Source: an uncultured Gammaproteobacteria bacterium (GTDB lineage: Bacteria > Patescibacteriota > Microgenomatia > Woykebacterales > RBG-16-39-9b). From it: a stretch of 64,000 nt of DNA. The position numbers were made by a program, and so were the translations under genes. The stretch spans positions 71,296 through 135,295 of the forward strand of contig CAYIWY010000002.1 in the NCBI GenBank assembly GCA_964367355.1, read 5' to 3'. Of this stretch, positions 24,179-44,404 are shown in pieces (the first letter of the stretch is position 1; the number at the start of each line of letters is the position of its first letter). The notes beneath the pieces were generated by a model, which made no database searches, was not told where the DNA came from, and worked only from the letters and a program-made list of their open reading frames with translations.

Positions 24179-24303
24179 ACAAATGCAGTCTTTCTGAAAG
24201 AAAGTATACTTTCGTAGGGAAGTCTTTTTCAATTAGTCTTTTTCGTAGCTAATCGTCTATCTACCTTCGTGCATCTTAAGAAGATTACAATCATGAATTA
24301 TAA

Positions 24304-24800
24304 TTTTTCCTTCCTTAGAAAGCAATTTAGCGTTTAAAGTTGTATAATCGGGTCAATTGAAAGGAGAAAAGTCGTGCCGGATATACCAATGCAGAAACTC
24401 TCTGTACTACGCTTTCTCGTAATGATGATTGAAAAACGTTTGCTTGCGGACGGATTAATGTTCAATGGCCATCTGTGTGTGGTACTCACCCACCCGGAAA
24501 AGAAACTCACCTGGTTGGTAAACGACGATCCTTTCTGGCTCTCGATCAAAGATCTTGGTAATGATTACCAAATTACGGTTCTGACCATAAATCAAGATCC
24601 ACCAACTCAGAGTTATCAGGTTTCGCGAGAAAACTTGCAAACTTGGGTCGAAGCAGCAAAACCCAACCTGGACGATTGGGAAAAAATTACTCTCTGGATA
24701 CGTGAAGGTTCTAAGAGAGAAATGGGTCAGATCCCTGATCAAATTAAAGAGTGTCTTGCCTCTTAAAACCGTACACAATCTGTGTGCGGTTTTTCCTTTA
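24304..24800 (+). repeat. Copy 1 of a ~500 bp duplicated cassette (promoter + 130-aa gene + terminator)
   Basis: About 90% identical to 28816..29315 by eye. Includes the extended -10 (aaagTTGTATAAT) and SD (AAAGGAG) ahead of the GTG start. Confidence 0.8.
24374..24766 (+). CDS. Hypothetical 130-aa protein (duplicated family, copy 1)
   Basis: Near-identical paralog at 28887..29279 (LRFLVMM.EKRL..DGLMFNGHLCVVLTHPEKKLTWL...). Followed by a hairpin + U-run terminator. Confidence 0.6.
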   Translation: MPDIPMQKLSVLRFLVMMIEKRLLADGLMFNGHLCVVLTHPEKKLTWLVNDDPFWLSIKDLGNDYQITVLTINQDPPTQSYQVSRENLQTWVEAAKPNLDDWEKITLWIREGSKREMGQIPDQIKECLAS

Positions 24801-28300: not shown

Positions 28301-28404
28301 CGCTTGAAAGCAAATAAAAAAGGGTCACGAGCAGAAATGCTCCCGACCCTTGATGAACAGATTGAATCTCGGTTCCCTGTTGTGTGCTTACTTTGGGGCA
28401 AATT
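28301..28404 (-). repeat. ~100 bp 3' repeat (gene tail + terminator), copy A
   Basis: Near-identical to 29327..29428. Reverse strand hairpin AAGGGTC-N18-GACCCTT + U-run. Covers the last codons (..FAPK*) of the 28388..28783 gene. Confidence 0.75.
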
Positions 28405-28783: not shown

Positions 28784-28815
28784 TCCTCTTCCTCCTTCTT
28801 TCATCGAAAGTATAG

Positions 28816-37888: not shown

Positions 37889-39685
37889 TTATTCAATCTC
37901 CTTCCAGGAATTGATATTGAACCCTCCCCCAGGTCCGGACGAGAAATTTGTATTAGCCAGACCCGATTCGTAGGTCACGGTCGCATTATTTTCCAATTCA
38001 ATTCCGTAACCAGTTATTTCCTTAGCGCCACCATTATTAGCAACATCAACCTGACCACGGGAGCCGTAGATAACAGCCGCACCCACGTTGTTACCGACAT
38101 TAATTGCTGAATTACTACTAGTACAAGTTTGTCCGGTCGGACTATTAGTACCGTTGCAATCGTTTGTCGAAATCAATAAAAAGTAGCTCCCGGCTTGTCC
38201 CGAACCTTGAAAAGTAGTGTTGTTGGAAAGATTTATATAACCATCAGATAGCATAACCCCACCGTTAGCTCCATAACCAGCATCAAGTTTCACTATTACA
38301 TTATTTGATAAAGTAATAGTTCCTTGCACCCAAACTGTTCCTGTAATAGTCAGGGTTACGTTGTTATCCAAAACCATATTACCAGTAATCTTTGTCGGTC
38401 CTAAGGAAGCTGTTGCTCCATTGTTTAGCGTGTAATTTCCACTAACCACTCCTCCTGCTTCTGCCTCTGTTTTCCACTGGTTGATATTGGCATCAGAGAT
38501 AGCAAAATTTTGTGGCGTCGGGTCGGCTTGAGAAGTATTGCAAGCTTTATTATTACCACTCCCAGTTTGGCAATAATTTGTCCCCGCTATTGTCGAGTTG
38601 TTTACTGTATGAGCTCGAGCATCCCCAGTGGAACCTGTTCCGATAAGAACACTATTAATCGTCCCAGTTATCCCCCCTAAATAAAGTTTAAAATAGCCAT
38701 CTAAACTAGTAATATTCCAAGGTCCAGCGGAGTACGGGCCAGTTTTGGCTTGACCATTTGCATAAGTATTGTTTGCCGCCCATTGATAATACCGAGTCGC
38801 ATTGGTTGCCCCATCCAAAACCAACCAGTAAGTAACCCCAGCTATCAGTTGTGGGTTGGAAGTAAAGTTCACGCTCACCCAGCCGTAGCTTGAAGTAACT
38901 GAGGAAGCACTTAAAGATCCGGAGGTCACTGTAGTTGAGCTTGGGTTTCCGCCTGAATCGGTGGTGATTCTAACTGTCAGGTTTCCGGGCGTACTAACTT
39001 TGCGAATATAAAGCTGGACATTATTAGCCAGGTTAGTTGTGGCAACCTGAAAACTTTGGGCCGCATCTTGAGTAGAGCTCGCATTTCCAAAAGCTATCAA
39101 ATTTGTTGGTGTGGAAGGGGTATCATTAATTTGATCTGGGGTCGAGGCGGGACTATTAGCGGCAATAGCCGTTCCCGTGACAAAGGCTCCATTGGAACCA
39201 GTAATACTCCCGTTGGAGTAGACATTACCGTTAACACCGGAATTATTAGCCATCTCCAAACCACCAAAACCGACCTGAACACCGTAATTAAAGGCAACAT
39301 TCGTCGTGGACTGAGTCGTTCCTAGGCCAACTTCCAACTTTCGGTAATTACTACTTATATTTCCGTTGGAAGTAACGACCAAAGCTGTCAACGGACCACT
39401 AACGTCAACCTGAGTACTACCAGTGCCAACGTTCAATGTGTAAGAAGTTGAATAGTTTTTTGCATTGGCGATCCGATAAACCGCATCTTCAATTCCAGAC
39501 TCGGATGTATAGTAACTCTGAGCTGAGTCGACGACATTGCCGATAGTTTTCAGATCGTTGTAAGTCAAAACACCAACACTTGAAATCACAACAAGCATCA
39601 CCGTCACAACTACCAAAATCATTACTAGTGCCGACTGACCTGCTTGGTTTTTGATTTTACCTTTTAATAAATCTAAAGTTTTCAT
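37889..39685 (-). CDS. Large pilus-associated protein with PilX-N-like N-terminus and beta-helix-like G/N/T/S-rich body
   Basis: N-terminus QAGQSALVMILVVVTVMLVV (PilX_N-type). 598 aa, low-complexity repeats typical of tip adhesins. Confidence 0.5.
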   Translation of the reverse strand: MKTLDLLKGKIKNQAGQSALVMILVVVTVMLVVISSVGVLTYNDLKTIGNVVDSAQSYYTSESGIEDAVYRIANAKNYSTSYTLNVGTGSTQVDVSGPLTALVVTSNGNISSNYRKLEVGLGTTQSTTNVAFNYGVQVGFGGLEMANNSGVNGNVYSNGSITGSNGAFVTGTAIAANSPASTPDQINDTPSTPTNLIAFGNASSTQDAAQSFQVATTNLANNVQLYIRKVSTPGNLTVRITTDSGGNPSSTTVTSGSLSASSVTSSYGWVSVNFTSNPQLIAGVTYWLVLDGATNATRYYQWAANNTYANGQAKTGPYSAGPWNITSLDGYFKLYLGGITGTINSVLIGTGSTGDARAHTVNNSTIAGTNYCQTGSGNNKACNTSQADPTPQNFAISDANINQWKTEAEAGGVVSGNYTLNNGATASLGPTKITGNMVLDNNVTLTITGTVWVQGTITLSNNVIVKLDAGYGANGGVMLSDGYINLSNNTTFQGSGQAGSYFLLISTNDCNGTNSPTGQTCTSSNSAINVGNNVGAAVIYGSRGQVDVANNGGAKEITGYGIELENNATVTYESGLANTNFSSGPGGGFNINSWKEIE

Positions 39686-39712
39686 ATTAGTTAAGCAAAA
39701 TTACTTCGTAAT

Positions 39713-40243
39713 TTAGTAAGTCCTCAAAACTGCCGTCGAAGTAAGTGTTACGGCATTTTTTGGTCCGGTGATCGGATCTTTATACTCGACCGTTATCGAA
39801 ATCCGTATTGCATCTGCTCCACCAGTATTATTATTTATAAAAGTCAAGTTGGTGACTTTAACTTTTTCCGAGGTAAGTAGTTGGTCAGACTGGCCCTCAC
39901 GTTTAAGATAAAGATTTCCCTCGTCAACATAAAAATCAACAAAGGTCAGGTCTTCGTCATCAGGCAAATCCCGAACTGATGCCAAACTAAGTTGACCTGG
40001 ATTGGTCCCGAAAACACTTGTCGGGGTATAAATACTATCAGCATGCCGGATTTCCTGGGAAATTGTTTCTAGAGAGCGTCTGGCATTATCCAGCGATTCT
40101 CTGGTTCTTCTGGTTGTCTCGTTCACGCCTAGTAGTTGATTGACGAAAAGTAAAACTACAAGACTTATTACCGCAAGCAGAATTGCATAGATCAGTACCT
40201 CAATTAGTGTGAATCCTTTTTGCTCTAATTTATTAGATTTCAT
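39713..40243 (-). CDS. Prepilin-type minor pilin / pseudopilin
   Basis: KGFTLIEVLIYAILLAVISLVVL N-terminal methylation motif (G|FTLIE). Confidence 0.7.
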   Translation of the reverse strand: MKSNKLEQKGFTLIEVLIYAILLAVISLVVLLFVNQLLGVNETTRRTRESLDNARRSLETISQEIRHADSIYTPTSVFGTNPGQLSLASVRDLPDDEDLTFVDFYVDEGNLYLKREGQSDQLLTSEKVKVTNLTFINNNTGGADAIRISITVEYKDPITGPKNAVTLTSTAVLRTY

Positions 40244-40244
40244 T

Positions 40245-40730
40245 TTAATTATTTTTAATATTTGCAATATAGCTAGTTAGTTTTACTGATTTTAATCCCG
40301 AGTCTGTCCAACTAACTGTTGCAACAACTTTTTTGGTATTGGGATCATTTGTACCACCGCTAGATAGAATATTAAAACTGCCGTCACGACCAATATTTGA
40401 AAAAACTATAGTTGGAGTGTAGTAGCTGGAAGAATTGGAATTCGTCGTCGTCAAGGACCAGGTAGTACCAGTGAGTTTCGGATAATAAGTTGTTCCAGCG
40501 GTCAAACCTGCAATATTAGTCGTCCAATTGTCATCTTTTAGTTTTCTGACAACTTCCATCGCTTCTTCCCCTACCGCAACTGCTTCGGTATTTCTCTGGG
40601 CTTTCAAAGTCGCGCTGCGAGAAAAAAGAATAAAGCTAAGAAAGGCAGTAAAAGAAATAACAATGATTGTTGCAGTAATTACTATCTCGATTAAACCAAA
40701 TCCGTTTTGAGTTTTGTGTTTGTTTCTCAT
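40245..40730 (-). CDS. Prepilin-type minor pilin (PilV-like)
   Basis: NGFGLIEIVITATIIVISF N-terminal motif. Confidence 0.7.
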   Translation of the reverse strand: MRNKHKTQNGFGLIEIVITATIIVISFTAFLSFILFSRSATLKAQRNTEAVAVGEEAMEVVRKLKDDNWTTNIAGLTAGTTYYPKLTGTTWSLTTTNSNSSSYYTPTIVFSNIGRDGSFNILSSGGTNDPNTKKVVATVSWTDSGLKSVKLTSYIANIKNN

Positions 40731-41677
40731 TGGGTAGTCATCGTGCCTCCATACGCACCCACTGTTGCGACTCCGGCTGCGGAATAGGAAACTATTCCCT
40801 TGGAATCAATACTTATATCCAATGCTTTATCATTGAAACGTTTATCGCGAGTGATACTTAAATCTGTATCGAAAGCATCAAGTGAGTGGGTATGCACCCG
40901 AAGCGTTTGGTTACTACCATTAACATCTATTGTTCCTGACCAATCAAAAACCGATTTTGGACCATCAAAAAAGCCGACCATCGCAATATTTTGGACCGTA
41001 TCTGGATTTGGTGAATTGTGAAAAGTCAGTGTAAGTGTGACTGCAGTTTGAAGAGTCCAGCCTAAATCGAAATGCAGGTGACGGCTGTCGGTAACACGAG
41101 CAGTGGGAGAAGCAATTGTATCGGTAATGCTCACCTGCCCAGAGGATGCAATATTTATTGTTTTCGTCTTGCTTGTATCACTAGTTAGGCGTACAACTAC
41201 ACTACCGAATTGAGTTGTCGTCCCACGAATACGAGCAAAAACAACCTCACTCCCTCCTCCATTTAAACTTATCGAACTAATCTCGCTATCTCCTAAAAGA
41301 TATTCTTTATTGCCAGCTGCGCCATCTGTATAGCTAGTACCAGTAAAAAGAACATATTTCGTTGTTTCAAAATGTACACCGTAGGCACTTTGGCTCTTGG
41401 AGGCTAACGTCTGACTGCGAGCTAGCCTAAGTGTACTTAAAATGTTTTGTGAAGAAGATTCAAGAGAAATCTGTTTGTTCAATGTTGATAAACTAAAAAG
41501 AGTAACTACGGTGATGATCAGAATTATCCCAATCGCGATAAGTATTTCGATAAGCGTGAATCCTTTGGGTTCAACGCTTGCGCTGCGAAGCATCTTAAGC
41601 GTGAATCCGTTACTTTTTTTTATAACATCAAAGTTTTTAGGAAAAGAGAAAAGTTTTTTTCGACTTGTAGAAGACAT
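40727..41677 (-). CDS. Prepilin-type pseudopilin (FimT/GspH-like)
   Basis: KGFTLIEILIAIGIILIITVV motif. The true start may be the internal MLRSASVEPKGFTL (~41593). Confidence 0.65.
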   Translation of the reverse strand: MSSTSRKKLFSFPKNFDVIKKSNGFTLKMLRSASVEPKGFTLIEILIAIGIILIITVVTLFSLSTLNKQISLESSSQNILSTLRLARSQTLASKSQSAYGVHFETTKYVLFTGTSYTDGAAGNKEYLLGDSEISSISLNGGGSEVVFARIRGTTTQFGSVVVRLTSDTSKTKTINIASSGQVSITDTIASPTARVTDSRHLHFDLGWTLQTAVTLTLTFHNSPNPDTVQNIAMVGFFDGPKSVFDWSGTIDVNGSNQTLRVHTHSLDAFDTDLSITRDKRFNDKALDISIDSKGIVSYSAAGVATVGAYGGTMTTQ

Positions 41678-41727
41678 AAGGCAGTTTTAGGTTAAGGTAA
41701 TTGTATCAAAAATTGGAGAAAAACGCA

Positions 41728-42507
41728 CTAAAGAAGAATTTTAGCAAACCAACTGCTCACTGTCTCACAAACTTCTTTAAGATGTTCTGGTTTTGTGTAG
41801 TCGTGATCTGAACCTTTAATAATTTTTAGTTGTTTGTTGGTAAACTGAACACGATCGAAATAATTTTGAGTATGACTAAGCAACCCATCATTAGTTCCAC
41901 AAAGAACCATTATCGGGCAGCTAATATTTTCAATCTCTTTGTCCATTTCGTAACTAACCCCATCATCGTAAAAAGATTTATTGAGTTTGAGGTTTCGTTG
42001 GGATGATCGCGAATAAACATAACCAAACCCTTTTTCTCTTGCTTCCTTGATGTAATCACCATAATATCTCTCAAAAGTTTCTGTAAAACTATAAACTGCC
42101 GAAAGCGGTGCTAATGCCTTAATTTCCGGATGAGTCGCACTATACCAACTAACAACCAAACCACCTAAAGAATGTCCTGCCAAACCAATCTTTTTTGGGT
42201 CGATCTCTTTTTGCGTTTTAACAAAATTTATTGCCTGATCCAAAACTTCTAACTCGTAACTGATGGTCATATCCTCAAAAGGTAAACTGCTCTCTCCCGG
42301 ATTTTCCGTAAAATCAAATCGCAGCGTTGCAAGGCCCATCCTTGTCAATGCTTGTGCGATTATTTTGAGATGGTCCTGGTTACGGTCTCCCTTGAATCCA
42401 TGGCAAAGAATTACCACTGGAAGTGGTTTAGTCCACTCCGGAATCGATAATGTGCCAACTATTTTTCGGCCTTGTTTATCTTTAAACTCAACCAATTTTT
42501 CATGCAT
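41728..42507 (-). CDS. Alpha/beta hydrolase (dienelactone hydrolase/esterase-like)
   Basis: Nucleophile elbow GHSLGG plus downstream Asp/His. 259 aa. Confidence 0.7.
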   Translation of the reverse strand: MHEKLVEFKDKQGRKIVGTLSIPEWTKPLPVVILCHGFKGDRNQDHLKIIAQALTRMGLATLRFDFTENPGESSLPFEDMTISYELEVLDQAINFVKTQKEIDPKKIGLAGHSLGGLVVSWYSATHPEIKALAPLSAVYSFTETFERYYGDYIKEAREKGFGYVYSRSSQRNLKLNKSFYDDGVSYEMDKEIENISCPIMVLCGTNDGLLSHTQNYFDRVQFTNKQLKIIKGSDHDYTKPEHLKEVCETVSSWFAKILL

Positions 42508-42514
42508 AATCTTG

Positions 42515-42530
42515 TATCAATCTATTGATA
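42515..42530 (-). promoter_or_regulatory. Palindromic operator-like site TATCAATCTATTGATA, 8 nt upstream of the hydrolase start
   Basis: 7-bp perfect arms (TATCAAT/ATTGATA). Same motif at 42940..42955 and 60774..60788. Confidence 0.5.
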
Positions 42531-42542
42531 TATTAAAGCAAA

Positions 42543-42935
42543 TTAACGAAACAGCTTCCCTCTAGCTTTCATATCAGTCTTTGCTTTTAAAGCTGCTTCC
42601 AGCCAACTCGTTTGTTTATTTTTATCAAATTGTTTGGTAACCTTACTTATAAAAGCGTTGAAACTCTTTACTTCCAATTTGGAATTAATCTCTCTAATTG
42701 TCGCGGTACTTACTTTCAGTTCTTGCGAAATACTTCGGTAATCGACGCCTTCCTTTAACATAACGGCAATCGCCAACCTCTTTGCTAACATAACTTTCTC
42801 AGCCTTGGAAAGAAACACTTCAAAAACTGCTTTCACTTCTTGTTTATCATGTAAATCAACGATCATCTCGTAAAATGTACTAAAAATCTTTGTGAACGTC
42901 TTTTGTTTAATTGGGTTTTTAGAAACTCTTGTCAT
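42543..42935 (-). CDS. TrpR-like YerC/YecD-family DNA-binding protein
   Basis: FEVFLSKAEKVMLAKRLAIAVMLKEGVDYRSISQELKVSTATIREI is collinear with B. subtilis YerC (…AQRLEVARMLREGHTYRDIVQELGVSSATISRV…). Confidence 0.75.
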   Translation of the reverse strand: MTRVSKNPIKQKTFTKIFSTFYEMIVDLHDKQEVKAVFEVFLSKAEKVMLAKRLAIAVMLKEGVDYRSISQELKVSTATIREINSKLEVKSFNAFISKVTKQFDKNKQTSWLEAALKAKTDMKARGKLFR

Positions 42936-42939
42936 TATG

Positions 42940-42955
42940 TATCAATCTATTGATA
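42940..42955 (-). promoter_or_regulatory. Palindromic operator-like site TATCAATCTATTGATA, 5 nt upstream of the yerC-like start
   Basis: Identical palindrome plus shared flank (..ATTGATAAATTGAAACA) with the 60.78 kb copy. Confidence 0.5.
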
Positions 42956-42988
42956 AATTGAAACATTGTCAATACAGGGATTCACTAG

Positions 42989-44404
42989 TTAACGAACTAT
43001 TTTCTTAAGTTTTGTTCCTCTTTCCTCATCGATAACTTCAAACCCCTTCTCTGCAATTTGTTTACGCAATTGGTCAGACTTTGCAAAATCTTTGTCCGCT
43101 CTGGCCTTTTCTCTTTGTTTAACCAAATCTTGAATTTCAGTTGGAATGGGTTGTTCGGCAATAGCATTTAACCCAAGGCCCAAAACTTCATCAAATTTCA
43201 GCAAACTTTGAAGTTTGGCAGAAGCAGGGTAATCCGACTTAACCAGATCCCACATTACTGCCAATGCTTTCGGGGTATCGAGGTCATTGTTAATTGCCTC
43301 AAGAAATTGCTGTTCAAACTCAGCGCATCCCACTTTGGCTTCACCATAACTTGAAACCTCGCGGTAAAGATTTGTCAACGCACTCTGCGCAGCTTGCAAA
43401 CTTTCCCAAGTAAAATTCATTTTACTGCGGTAGTGTGCAGTTAAACAAAGGTAACGAAAGGCTAAGGGATTTACACCTTTTTCGATCAGATCTTCTAGCG
43501 TCAAAACGCTGCTACCCGACTTGGCCATTTTATCGCCATCAAGTTGTAAGAATTCATTGTGCAGCCAAAATTTGGCCAGGATCTTATCAAAAGCTGCTTC
43601 GGATTGAGCAATTTCATTGCTGTGGTGGGTACCGATATGATCGACACCGCCAGTGTGAATATCGATTGGTTCCCCTAAACTTTCGTGAATGATTGCCGAA
43701 CACTCTAAGTGCCAACCTGGAAAACCCTCACCCCAAAGGCTGGGCCAGTGCATTTGGTGCTCCTTGAAACGTCCGGTGGTAAAGAACCAGAGAGCAAAAT
43801 CTTGCGGATGGTGTTTGTTTTCATCAGTGACAACTTCGGCTCGGGCGCCAACTTCTTTATCGACTAGTTTTTGGCCGGACAATTTTCCGTAGTCAGCAAC
43901 TTTAGTAACATCAAAATAAATTGCCTCTTCCGTCTGATAAGCAAAGCCTTTTTCGAGCAGAGTTTGTACCATGGCAACTTGTTCTTTGATCATCGACGTA
44001 GCTTTTATCAATTTTTTTGAAGGCAGGATATTGAGGGCTTGGGTGTGGCGCTTGAAAGCATCGGTATAAAATTCCGCCACTTGCCAAACTGTTTTATTCT
44101 CACGCGCCGCCCCTTTTTCGAGTTTGTCTTCGCCCTCGTCGGCGTCACTGGCCAGATGACCAACGTCAGTAATGTTCATCACGTGATTAACGTCAAGCGA
44201 GTTGAATTCTAAAGTCCGCCGCAAAATGTCATTGAAAACGCTATTGCGTAAATTGCCAATGTGAGCGTAGTGATAGACCGTCGGCCCACAGGTGTAAAGC
44301 TTTACCACGTTTCCTTCGAGGGGTAAGAACTTTTCTTTTTTGCGAGAAAGCGTGTTGGTTAAAAAAATATCTGCCATTTGACTCATTATAGTATTATATA
44401 TCAA
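42989..44404 (-). CDS. cysS: Cysteinyl-tRNA synthetase
   Basis: HIGN (HYAHIGN), KMAKS (KMSKS variant), class-I Rossmann fold and anticodon-binding domain. 471 aa. Confidence 0.95.
   Translation of the reverse strand: MIYNTIMSQMADIFLTNTLSRKKEKFLPLEGNVVKLYTCGPTVYHYAHIGNLRNSVFNDILRRTLEFNSLDVNHVMNITDVGHLASDADEGEDKLEKGAARENKTVWQVAEFYTDAFKRHTQALNILPSKKLIKATSMIKEQVAMVQTLLEKGFAYQTEEAIYFDVTKVADYGKLSGQKLVDKEVGARAEVVTDENKHHPQDFALWFFTTGRFKEHQMHWPSLWGEGFPGWHLECSAIIHESLGEPIDIHTGGVDHIGTHHSNEIAQSEAAFDKILAKFWLHNEFLQLDGDKMAKSGSSVLTLEDLIEKGVNPLAFRYLCLTAHYRSKMNFTWESLQAAQSALTNLYREVSSYGEAKVGCAEFEQQFLEAINNDLDTPKALAVMWDLVKSDYPASAKLQSLLKFDEVLGLGLNAIAEQPIPTEIQDLVKQREKARADKDFAKSDQLRKQIAEKGFEVIDEERGTKLKKIVR

What the first reader, a model, noticed from the sequence alone, without database searches (positions are those of the whole stretch)
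41728..42960. YerC/TrpR-like regulator with a candidate palindromic operator TATCAAT-CT-ATTGATA before its own gene and the adjacent hydrolase
The 16-bp palindrome lies 5-8 nt upstream of the start codons of both the yerC-like gene and the downstream alpha/beta hydrolase. Each time it has the same A/T-rich flank and no intervening SD. This suggests an autoregulated two-gene unit in which the operator overlaps the TSS and possibly leaderless transcripts. YerC-family proteins have no assigned regulon, so an operator-target pair would be informative.
Basis: partly seen in the sequence, partly recalled or inferred. Interest (0 to 1): 0.55.

Follow-up and report, generated by a model that had tools for sequence, protein, structure and literature searches.

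The report
Self-flanking operator of a TrpR-like repressor
A small TrpR/HisR-like DNA-binding protein of an uncultured groundwater bacterium (Candidate Phyla Radiation, CPR) has its probable binding site on its own promoter and again just after its own stop codon. This layout recurs in most homologue loci examined, so it gives a testable regulator-and-site pair for bacteria whose gene regulation is almost unknown.

Summary
TATCAATCTATTGATA occurs exactly at 42515-42530 and 42940-42955, 7 and 4 nt before the hydrolase and yerC-like start codons on the minus strand. The repeated unit is longer, 24-28 nt. It consists of three ATTGAW hexamers spaced 8 bp apart. A third copy lies at 60771-60798.

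The upstream copy covers the spacer and -10 of a promoter, TTGACA-17-TAGATT, that ends 8 nt before the ATG. The transcript is therefore leaderless or nearly so. This geometry is kept in orthologues down to 53% identity.

Among 72 non-redundant homologue loci from metagenomes, 59 carry a near-perfect palindrome just upstream of the gene. Of 55 testable loci, 45 carry a second copy of their own palindrome starting a few nt after the regulator's stop codon, whatever gene follows. Control regions gave 3 of 1100.

I read this as the cognate operator of an autorepressor from a large, undescribed CPR subfamily of TrpR/HisR-like proteins. Two corrections apply. B. subtilis YerC already has a regulon (HisR, histidine). 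The second site belongs to the regulator cassette rather than specifically to the hydrolase. The effector and wider regulon are unknown, and nothing has been tested experimentally.

The parts
42543..42935 (-). Gene for a 130-aa TrpR/HisR(YerC)-like helix-turn-helix protein, with a C-terminal extension relative to HisR and TrpR.
   Evidence: PF01371 E=4e-14. TIGR02531 scores 39.6 bits, below its 42.2 cutoff. The PDB profile search finds 3FRW at 6e-16 and E. coli TrpR at about 0.02. The AF2 model has pLDDT 82, and the top 42 Foldseek hits are all TrpR/HisR-like.
42938..42965 (-). Operator O1. On the gene strand it reads TTCAAT-TT-ATCAAT-AG-ATTGAT, with hexamers at 42957-42962, 42949-42954 and 42941-42946.
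   Evidence: Conserved upstream of orthologues in L009, L011, L012, L014 and L083.
42944..42972 (-). Sigma-70-type promoter of the yerC-like gene. The -35 TTGACA is at 42967-42972, followed by a 17-nt spacer and the -10 TAGATT at 42944-42949. Eight nt separate the -10 from the ATG at 42935, so the transcript is leaderless or has a leader of at most 3 nt.
   Evidence: Best promoter match in 41500-43100, 10 of 12 positions. The layout TTGAC(A/T)-17/18-TA(G/A)ATT-7/8 nt-ATG is conserved in five orthologous loci.
42513..42540 (-). Operator O2. It starts 3 nt after the yerC stop codon (42543-42545). On the gene strand it reads TTTAAT-AT-ATCAAT-AG-ATTGAT, with the palindrome at 42515-42530. An internal -10-like TAGATT lies at 42519-42524, 11 nt before the hydrolase ATG. 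No convincing -35 is present.
   Evidence: A second copy just after the regulator's stop is found in 45 of 55 homologue loci, against 3 of 1100 control regions.
41728..42507 (-). Alpha/beta-hydrolase (carboxylesterase-like) gene and candidate regulated target. It carries a GHSLGG nucleophile elbow. It is present only in the closest relatives.
   Evidence: Pfam Abhydrolase_1 and related families. PDB sequence hits to MHETase-like, feruloyl and cinnamoyl esterases, E 1e-27 to 1e-18. Present in L009 and L011, absent in L012 and L014.
60771..60798 (-). Operator copy O3. On the gene strand it reads TTCAAT-TT-ATCAAT-AG-ATTGAA, with a -10-like TAGATT at 60777-60782. It lies just after the intrinsic terminator of gene 60851-61360 and upstream of a remnant of the pth 5' end.
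   Evidence: Only the 24-nt motif is shared with O1; the flanks differ.
36547..41677 (-). Type IV pilin-like / PilN-like gene cluster downstream. In the more distant orthologues it directly follows the regulator and O2.
   Evidence: N_methyl and PilN hits. Synteny cysS - regulator - (hydrolase) - pilins is seen in L009, L011, L012 and L014.

Best explanation
The 130-aa protein belongs to a large, uncharacterised subfamily of TrpR/HisR-like repressors from Candidate Phyla Radiation (Patescibacteria) bacteria. The repeated element is its operator.

O1 covers the spacer, the -10 hexamer and the start point of the gene's own promoter. Bound repressor would therefore exclude RNA polymerase, giving negative autoregulation of a leaderless mRNA. 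The operator consists of three ATTGAW hexamers at 8-bp spacing. The 16-bp palindrome (ATCA-N6-TGAT core) has the same 4-N6-4 dyad geometry as HisR operators and is the likely seat of one dimer. The third hexamer, 8 bp further on, is a remnant or second contact inherited from an ancestral 26-28 bp perfect palindrome.

O2 lies directly after the regulator's stop codon. It lets the same protein gate what lies downstream, here the esterase-like hydrolase. It could do so by occluding a weak internal -10 or by blocking read-through, and it may also strengthen autorepression through cooperation with O1.

Shown:
- the sequence, positions and promoter geometry;
- conservation of the site and its co-variation between lineages;
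- the protein's fold and family.

Inferred:
- binding by this protein;
- the sign of regulation;
- the stoichiometry;
- the role of O2.

The effector is unknown.
For: - Exact repeats far beyond chance.
- O1 overlaps the best promoter in the region, TTGACA-17-TAGATT, which ends 8 nt before the ATG. This geometry is kept in orthologues of 85%, 55% and 53% identity.
- In L012 both halves of the inner palindrome changed together (TCGAT..ATCGA), in both copies.
- 59 of 72 non-redundant homologue loci have a dyad of at least 8 of 10 paired positions within 70 nt upstream of the gene, mostly ending 5-14 nt from the ATG.
- The core differs between lineages (ATGATTTAAATCAT, ATGATTCGAATCAT, ATGTATTAATACAT, ATGTTTTAAAACAT, ATGAATTAATTCAT). 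It is the same in the two copies of a locus in 45 of 55 cases, against 3 of 1100 control regions. Core types go together with recognition-helix types.
- In the one related genome held in the genome collection, Woykebacteria RBG_13_40_15, the motif pattern occurs exactly three times: before the regulator, after it, and before an SDR-MaoC operon.
- The protein is TrpR/HisR-like by profile and by fold.
- HisR and TrpR are known to bind roughly 20-bp palindromes and are often autoregulated (PMC9413887).
- The RNA folds of the three sites are unremarkable, and there is no Rfam match.
Against: - No binding or expression data exist.
- The correlation between operator type and protein type is confounded with phylogeny.
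- O2 has no recognisable -35. Family-wide it is anchored to the regulator's stop codon at variable distance (4 to about 190 nt) from the next gene, often with a separate promoter in between. Classical promoter occlusion of the downstream gene is therefore not general.
- O3 precedes no intact gene.
- 13 of 72 loci lack a clear palindrome.
- A -10 hexamer close to the ATG is common in this genome, so leaderless layout alone says nothing about regulation.
Confidence: 0.75

Rival explanations
1. The repeats are only duplicated core-promoter sequence (-10 plus spacer) for leaderless genes. No dedicated regulator binds them, and the dyad is incidental.
For: The element contains a -10-like TAGATT in all three copies. 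Many genes in the window have a -10-like hexamer 6-12 nt before the ATG and lack an SD.
Against: - Sigma-70 does not need a conserved dyad-symmetric spacer.
- Other promoters in the window do not carry the motif.
- In distant homologues the palindrome keeps perfect symmetry while its sequence changes, and it is copied after the stop codon even where the next promoter lies about 100 nt away.
- In L054 and L014 a separate promoter lies downstream of the motif.
Confidence: 0.07
2. The palindromes act as RNA hairpins, for example terminators or stabilisers at the 3' ends of cysS and yerC, rather than as DNA sites.
For: Both flanking copies lie shortly after a stop codon. In a few homologue loci the second palindrome is followed by a T-run (L098).
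Against: - Predicted folds are no better than shuffled sequence, with z = +0.95, -0.84 and -1.21.
- The stems are A/T-rich and generally lack a U-tail.
- The genome uses canonical G+C-rich terminators, one of which sits directly next to O3.
- With the inferred start point, O1 is not transcribed.
- The terminator scan finds nothing at the sites, and Rfam finds nothing.
Confidence: 0.05
3. The sites are bound by a different protein, such as a global or nucleoid factor or DnaA (TTATCAATA resembles a DnaA box), and their link to the yerC-like gene is only positional.
For: No experiment ties the protein to the site. TTATCAATA matches 6 of 9 positions of TTATCCACA (this comparison rests on my own knowledge).
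Against: - The site follows the gene across 59 of 72 loci with diverse neighbours, and changes with the protein lineage.
- The family consensus AATGATTTAAATCATT has no likeness to a DnaA box.
- Only about three copies occur per genome where this could be counted.
Confidence: 0.08
4. The unit palindrome-gene-palindrome is a small mobile or recombining cassette, in the manner of REP/RAYT or IS200-like ends, and the palindromes are its termini.
For: The gene is bracketed by identical palindromes. Homologues sit in many different gene neighbourhoods.
Against: - The protein is a TrpR-like HTH, not a transposase or recombinase.
- The synteny cysS - regulator - pilins is stable from 100% down to 53% identity.
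- There are no dispersed copies: extra copies were found in 3 loci in 231 kb scanned, all within 1 kb of the gene.
Confidence: 0.03

Closest known systems
HisR (B. subtilis YerC and orthologues; TrpR family; structures 3G1C, 3FRW, 3KOR)
   Same: It is the closest family by profile and by fold. It binds a palindromic operator and is frequently autoregulated, with a site upstream of its own gene (PMC9413887). The 16-bp palindrome here has the same 4-N6-4 dyad geometry as cacTTTAnnnnnnTAAAgtg. The outer flanks of the Woykebacteria site (CACTTCA...TGAAGTG) resemble the HisR flanks but lie 8 bp further apart.
   Different: The score is below the TIGR02531 cutoff. The protein is 130-150 aa with an extra C-terminal helix, whereas HisR is under 100 aa. 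The operator is 22-28 bp with different bases. No histidine genes lie next to it; its neighbours are an esterase, pilins and others. The host is a CPR bacterium, a group not covered by the HisR study. The site copy anchored after the stop codon is not mentioned in the parts of the HisR study I read.
E. coli TrpR and its operators, including tandem binding at 8-bp offsets (PDB 1TRO, 1TRR)
   Same: The fold is the same, with TM about 0.72-0.77 normalised to the target. The operator overlaps the promoter and the gene is autoregulated. The hexamers here repeat every 8 bp, the offset at which TrpR dimers bind in tandem (my own knowledge; the title of 1TRR appears).
   Different: Pairwise sequence similarity is not significant, BLASTP E=0.53. 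There are no trp genes. Conservation of the tryptophan-binding residues is not established. Tandem binding here is only a hypothesis.
Controller (C) proteins of restriction-modification systems
   Same: They are small HTH proteins with palindromic sites immediately upstream of their own gene. They are said to use leaderless transcripts (from my own knowledge; the systematic prediction paper PMC2632904 appeared but was not read).
   Different: They belong to an unrelated HTH family. Their two sites are adjacent upstream, not flanking the gene, and no R-M genes are present here.
Auxiliary downstream operators and roadblocks (lac O2 at +401; PurR, CcpA or CodY roadblock sites)
   Same: A second copy of the operator lies several hundred bp downstream of the promoter-proximal one. 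It could cooperate with the first by looping or could stop elongating polymerase (my own knowledge).
   Different: Here the second site lies outside the coding sequence, at a nearly fixed distance after the regulator's own stop codon, and it is conserved family-wide. Neither looping nor roadblock has been tested.

Membership tests
TrpR family (Pfam PF01371) | Sequence match to the family profile above the curated cutoff | tested here: met
   PF01371 E=4e-14, 52.9 bits against a cutoff of 27, residues 19-90.
TrpR family (Pfam PF01371) | All-helical TrpR-like fold with a helix-turn-helix | tested here: met
   AF2 model with pLDDT 82 and seven helices. The top 42 Foldseek PDB hits are all TrpR/HisR-like, with probability 0.98-1.00 and target-normalised TM 0.69-0.77.
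TrpR family (Pfam PF01371) | Binds a palindromic operator of about 20 bp that overlaps a promoter | not testable with these tools
   The sequence evidence fits, but binding has not been shown.
TrpR proper (TIGR01321, tryptophan repressor) | Equivalog score; tryptophan co-repressor; trp/aro regulon | tested here: not met
   TIGR01321 scores 29.9 bits against a cutoff of 67.25. BLASTP against E. coli TrpR gives E=0.53. No trp genes are adjacent.
HisR / YerC-YecD (TIGR02531) | Score at or above the curated cutoff | tested here: not met
   39.6 bits against a cutoff of 42.2. It is nevertheless the closest solved relative: 3FRW at 6e-16.
HisR / YerC-YecD (TIGR02531) | Length under 100 aa; operator cacTTTAnnnnnnTAAAgtg; sites before his, hisXYZ or yuiF genes | tested here: not met
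   The protein is 130 aa. The operator is TTCAAT-N2-ATCAAT-N2-ATTGAT. The neighbours are cysS, an esterase and pilins. HisR features are taken from PMC9413887. Only the window and the fetched loci were examined, not the whole genome.
CPR subfamily defined here (130-150 aa TrpR-like protein with flanking palindromes) | N-terminus M-x-[RQ]-[VI]-S; invariant E46, AKRL (51-54), V75, S76 and T79; a palindrome upstream and a second copy after the stop codon | tested here: met
   Alignment A1. Upstream and downstream copies are present in the window and in 45 of 55 loci. The family has 2182 clusters at E<=1e-10.

The most novel reading that the evidence does not exclude
The CPR TrpR-like proteins form a portable, self-insulated regulatory cassette. 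The cassette has one operator on the promoter and an identical one fixed a few nt after the stop codon. Through their extra C-terminal helix, two DNA-bound dimers (or tandem dimers at 8-bp offsets) would bridge the two sites and loop out the regulator's own gene, or would act as a protein roadblock in place of a terminator. Whatever gene lands downstream (esterase, pilins, RluA, ABC transporter and others) would thereby come under control of one unknown, possibly host-derived, signal. That would be a previously undescribed way of wiring regulation in minimal genomes.
Probability: 0.25. Interest if true: 0.75.

Novelty: new variant of a known kind. Interest (0 to 1): 0.55.

Why it matters
Almost nothing is known about transcription control in CPR/Patescibacteria. 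My literature searches found no description of this regulator family or its site.

This work provides three things:
- A regulator family with about 2,200 clusters at 50% identity.
- A predicted operator for each lineage.
- A conserved and unusual layout, with copies of the site flanking the regulator gene.

All of this can be tested with a 130-aa protein and 30-40 bp oligonucleotides. It also gives sequence-level evidence that leaderless transcription from promoters abutting the ATG is common in this lineage.

In the closest relatives the cassette sits next to an esterase and a type IV pilin cluster. Type IV pili are thought to matter for the host-attached lifestyle (my own knowledge), so the unknown effector could be biologically informative.

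Tried and rejected
- **Genome-collection scan** with TCRATYTATYGATAWATTRAA. It returned 66 loci, almost all single chance hits in unrelated A/T-rich genomes. The window's own genome is not in that collection, so its genome-wide regulon could not be defined. Only Woykebacteria RBG_13_40_15 gave meaningful hits (3 sites).
- **Known RNA element.** No Rfam match in the window, and the RNA folds are unremarkable.
- **Terminator reading.** The scan finds nothing at the sites.
- **Direct similarity to E. coli TrpR.** BLASTP is not significant, so ligand-site residues could not be compared reliably.
- **Conserved downstream target.** Rejected, because the next genes are diverse.
- **Fixed distance from O2 to the next gene's start**, for example a class II activator position. 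Rejected, because the distances vary from 4 to about 190 nt.
- **DnaA-box reading and REP/RAYT or IS200-like cassette.** Rejected (see rivals).
- **Degenerate operator-like sequence before the pilin gene** (41678-41727). The arms are too weak in the window to claim a site.
- **SD census**. This is crude, using ORFs of at least 120 aa and simple 4-mers, and should be read only as a trend.
- **Link between regulator subtype and operator subtype**. This was judged by eye and is not corrected for phylogeny.

Full report
**1. What is in the sequence**

All relevant genes are on the minus strand:
- cysS, 42989-44404.
- A 130-aa TrpR-like gene, 42543-42935.
- An alpha/beta hydrolase, 41728-42507.
- A cluster of type IV pilin-like genes, from 41677 downwards.

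The 16-mer TATCAATCTATTGATA is present exactly at 42515-42530 and 42940-42955. It ends 7 nt before the hydrolase ATG and 4 nt before the regulator ATG. Each ORF has an in-frame TGA inside the palindrome, so the start codons cannot lie further upstream. The N-terminus M-T-R-V-S is shared by homologues.

It is a 28-nt family with three members, the third at 60771-60798. The 24-mer TCAATCTATTGATAWATTRAARCA matches three times against 0.00 expected.

Read on the gene strand, the element is three hexamers at an exact 8-bp period: TTCAAT-TT-ATCAAT-AG-ATTGAT. The first and third hexamers form an outer dyad.

**2. Relation to the promoter**

The best sigma-70-like match in 41500-43100 is TTGACA-17-TAGATT on the minus strand at 42972-42944, with 10 of 12 positions. 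Its -10 lies inside the operator and ends 8 nt before the ATG.

The same layout, TTGAC(A/T), 17-18 nt, TA(G/A)ATT, 7-8 nt, ATG, is found upstream of the orthologues in L009 and L011 (85-86% identity), L014 (55%) and L012 (53%). The transcript should therefore start at or within about 3 nt of the A of the ATG.

This is not peculiar to this gene. Many ORFs in the window have a TATAAT-like hexamer 6-12 nt before the ATG, and only 16 of 59 long ORFs have an SD-like 4-mer (a crude census).

O2 carries the same TAGATT 11 nt before the hydrolase ATG but has no convincing -35.

**3. Source and synteny**

The window comes from a 214-kb contig of a Hainich groundwater metagenome. The nearest named relative is Candidatus Woykebacteria RBG_13_40_15.

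The order cysS - regulator - pilin cluster is conserved. The hydrolase lies between regulator and pilins only in the window, L009 and L011. In L012 and L014 the regulator is followed directly by the pilin genes.

L012 and L014 nevertheless have a second operator copy right at the end of the regulator gene, about 70-85 nt before the pilin start. In L014 the gene call even reads through it, giving the tail ...RPLQSIDKLKCRVIL. The N-terminal extensions of P0005 and P0009 (QSIDKL, QSIDRL) are likewise the translated operator.

**4. Family-wide test**

A metagenome scan with the protein alignment returned 80 loci at 29-55% identity. Results on the 72 non-redundant loci:
- 59 have a 20-mer with at least 8 of 10 dyad pairs within 70 nt upstream, most ending 5-14 nt from the ATG.
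- The palindromes are often perfect over 26-38 bp, for example ACTTCAATGATTTAAATCATTGAAGT in L089.
- The dyad-symmetric consensus is TACTTYAATGATTY|RAATCATTRAAGTA. The most conserved positions are ATG/CAT at +/-5-7.
- The core differs between lineages (..GATTTAAATC....GATTCGAATC....GTATTAATAC....GTTTTAAAAC....GAATTAATTC..), always symmetrically. Core types go together with recognition-helix types.

In 45 of 55 testable loci the locus's own 20-mer recurs with at most 3 mismatches close to the regulator's stop codon. The start is mostly +5 to +11 nt after the stop, with a mode of +7, and the site sometimes supplies the TGA itself. Control regions of the same loci gave 3 of 1100.

The genes that follow are diverse: pilins, RluA-like, ABC ATPase, lamin-tail-domain proteins, TyrRS, TatD and others. 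Their distance from the second site ranges from 4 to about 190 nt, often with a separate promoter in between. Extra copies are rare and local: in 3 loci in 231 kb scanned, all within 1 kb of the regulator.

The window clade keeps the family's outer arms (CACTTCAAT...ATTGAAGTA in L014). It has replaced the symmetric inner 10 bp by the asymmetric CTATTGATAA, which creates the third hexamer.

**5. The protein**

- PF01371 is well above threshold.
- The HisR/YerC equivalog TIGR02531 is just below its cutoff, and TrpR proper is far below.
- A profile of the family finds the HisR-type structures 3FRW, 3KOR and 3G1C at E 6e-16 to 9e-13, and E. coli TrpR only at about 0.02-0.4.
- The AF2 model (pLDDT 82) superposes on those structures.
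- It has one more C-terminal helix (about residues 109-128), predicted with low confidence and absent from HisR and TrpR.
- BLASTP against E. coli TrpR is not significant.
- An exhaustive profile search gives 2182 50%-identity clusters at E<=1e-10, mostly 130-150 aa. This is a large family.

**6. What is already known**

B. subtilis YerC is HisR, the histidine repressor (PMC9413887). That study reports:
- a 20-bp palindrome, cacTTTAnnnnnnTAAAgtg;
- regulons comprising his operons and histidine transporters;
- frequent autoregulation;
- in vitro validation with the R. gnavus protein.

The statement that YerC-family proteins have no regulon is therefore outdated. That study did not include CPR. 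My searches found nothing on TrpR-like regulators in CPR/Patescibacteria.

The 16-bp palindrome here (ATCA-N6-TGAT) has the HisR 4-N6-4 geometry. The perfect 26-bp palindromes of the wider family can be read as two such cores overlapping at an 8-bp offset: TTCA-N6-TAAA and TTTA-N6-TGAA. This recalls the tandem binding of TrpR dimers. It is an inference, not a result.

**7. Mechanism**

Most likely (about 0.75), the element is the cognate operator. O1 mediates negative autoregulation by covering the -10 and the start point.

The role of O2 is less certain. In the window clade it lies 7 nt from the hydrolase ATG with its own -10. It could therefore repress a weak hydrolase promoter or block read-through from yerC. 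Family-wide, its anchoring to the stop codon argues that it belongs to the regulator cassette, whether as a roadblock or insulator or as a partner of O1 in cooperative binding or looping.

O3 lies after a canonical terminator and before a 21-codon ORF that contains a degenerate duplicate of the pth N-terminus (MKMIVELVNPGA compared with MKLIVGLGNPGA). An 88-codon ORF on the other strand and then the intact pth follow. Its target is unclear.

In Woykebacteria the third genomic copy precedes an SDR-MaoC operon. The hydrolase resembles carboxylesterases. The effector remains unknown.

**8. Rivals**

- Promoter duplication without a regulator.
- RNA hairpins or terminators.
- Binding by another protein.
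- A mobile cassette.

All four are disfavoured by the dyad symmetry with lineage-specific co-variation, the weak RNA folds, the stable synteny and the very low copy number.

**9. Verdict**

The system is a new CPR variant of TrpR/HisR-type autoregulation with an unusual gene-flanking pair of operators. It is of moderate interest and needs a simple binding experiment.

Noticed in passing
window 60399-60750 (and pth at 59793-60329): A 21-codon ORF (60685-60750, minus strand) contains MKMIVELVNPGA, which resembles the N-terminus of the intact peptidyl-tRNA hydrolase 400 nt downstream (MKLIVGLGNPGA). Between them lies an 88-codon plus-strand ORF with a hydrophobic N-terminus. This looks like an insertion or rearrangement that duplicated the pth 5' end. 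Operator copy O3 sits just upstream.
   Followed up: partly
window, many gene starts (e.g. 24984, 25986, 26799, 28276, 47717, 63339): A TATAAT-like hexamer lies 6-12 nt before the start codon of many genes, and only 16 of 59 long ORFs have an SD-like 4-mer. Leaderless or very short-leader transcripts appear common in this genome.
   Followed up: partly
O1/O2/O3 in the window compared with L012, L014, L054 and L083: The asymmetric operator core has opposite orientation relative to the genes in the two clades, in all copies at once. The central hexamer and the 2-nt spacers are reverse-complemented, which amounts to 4 substitutions. Loop inversion at a quasi-palindrome is a possible cause but was not tested.
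   Followed up: partly
L111 and L158 (both from contig Ga0082335_1000175, 173 kb): One genome carries two paralogous regulators of this family about 46 kb apart. Both have the same operator core, AATGATTTAAATCATT, so cross-regulation is possible.
   Followed up: no
L140 3510-3602: Two operator copies lie downstream of the regulator: one at the stop codon and a second 7 nt before the next gene's ATG. In this locus the downstream gene seems to have its own site.
   Followed up: no
window 24296-24652 vs 28808-29165; 28318-28403 vs 29343-29428: There are direct repeats of 54 nt (91% identity) and 300 nt (85%), and of 86 nt (99% identity). They include two 130-codon ORFs (24374-24766 and 28887-29279). 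This is probably a local gene duplication.
   Followed up: no
window 31607-35092 (minus strand): A metal-resistance cluster: a CsoR-type repressor (PF02583), a 184-aa protein, a cupredoxin-like protein and a P-type ATPase with an HMA domain, according to the gene table of L001.
   Followed up: no
window 60805-60840: A canonical G+C-rich intrinsic terminator (GGCGTGATAAATTAAATATCACGCC followed by a T-rich tail) lies after gene 60851-61360. This shows that the genome does use classical terminators. None is found after cysS or after the regulator gene.
   Followed up: partly
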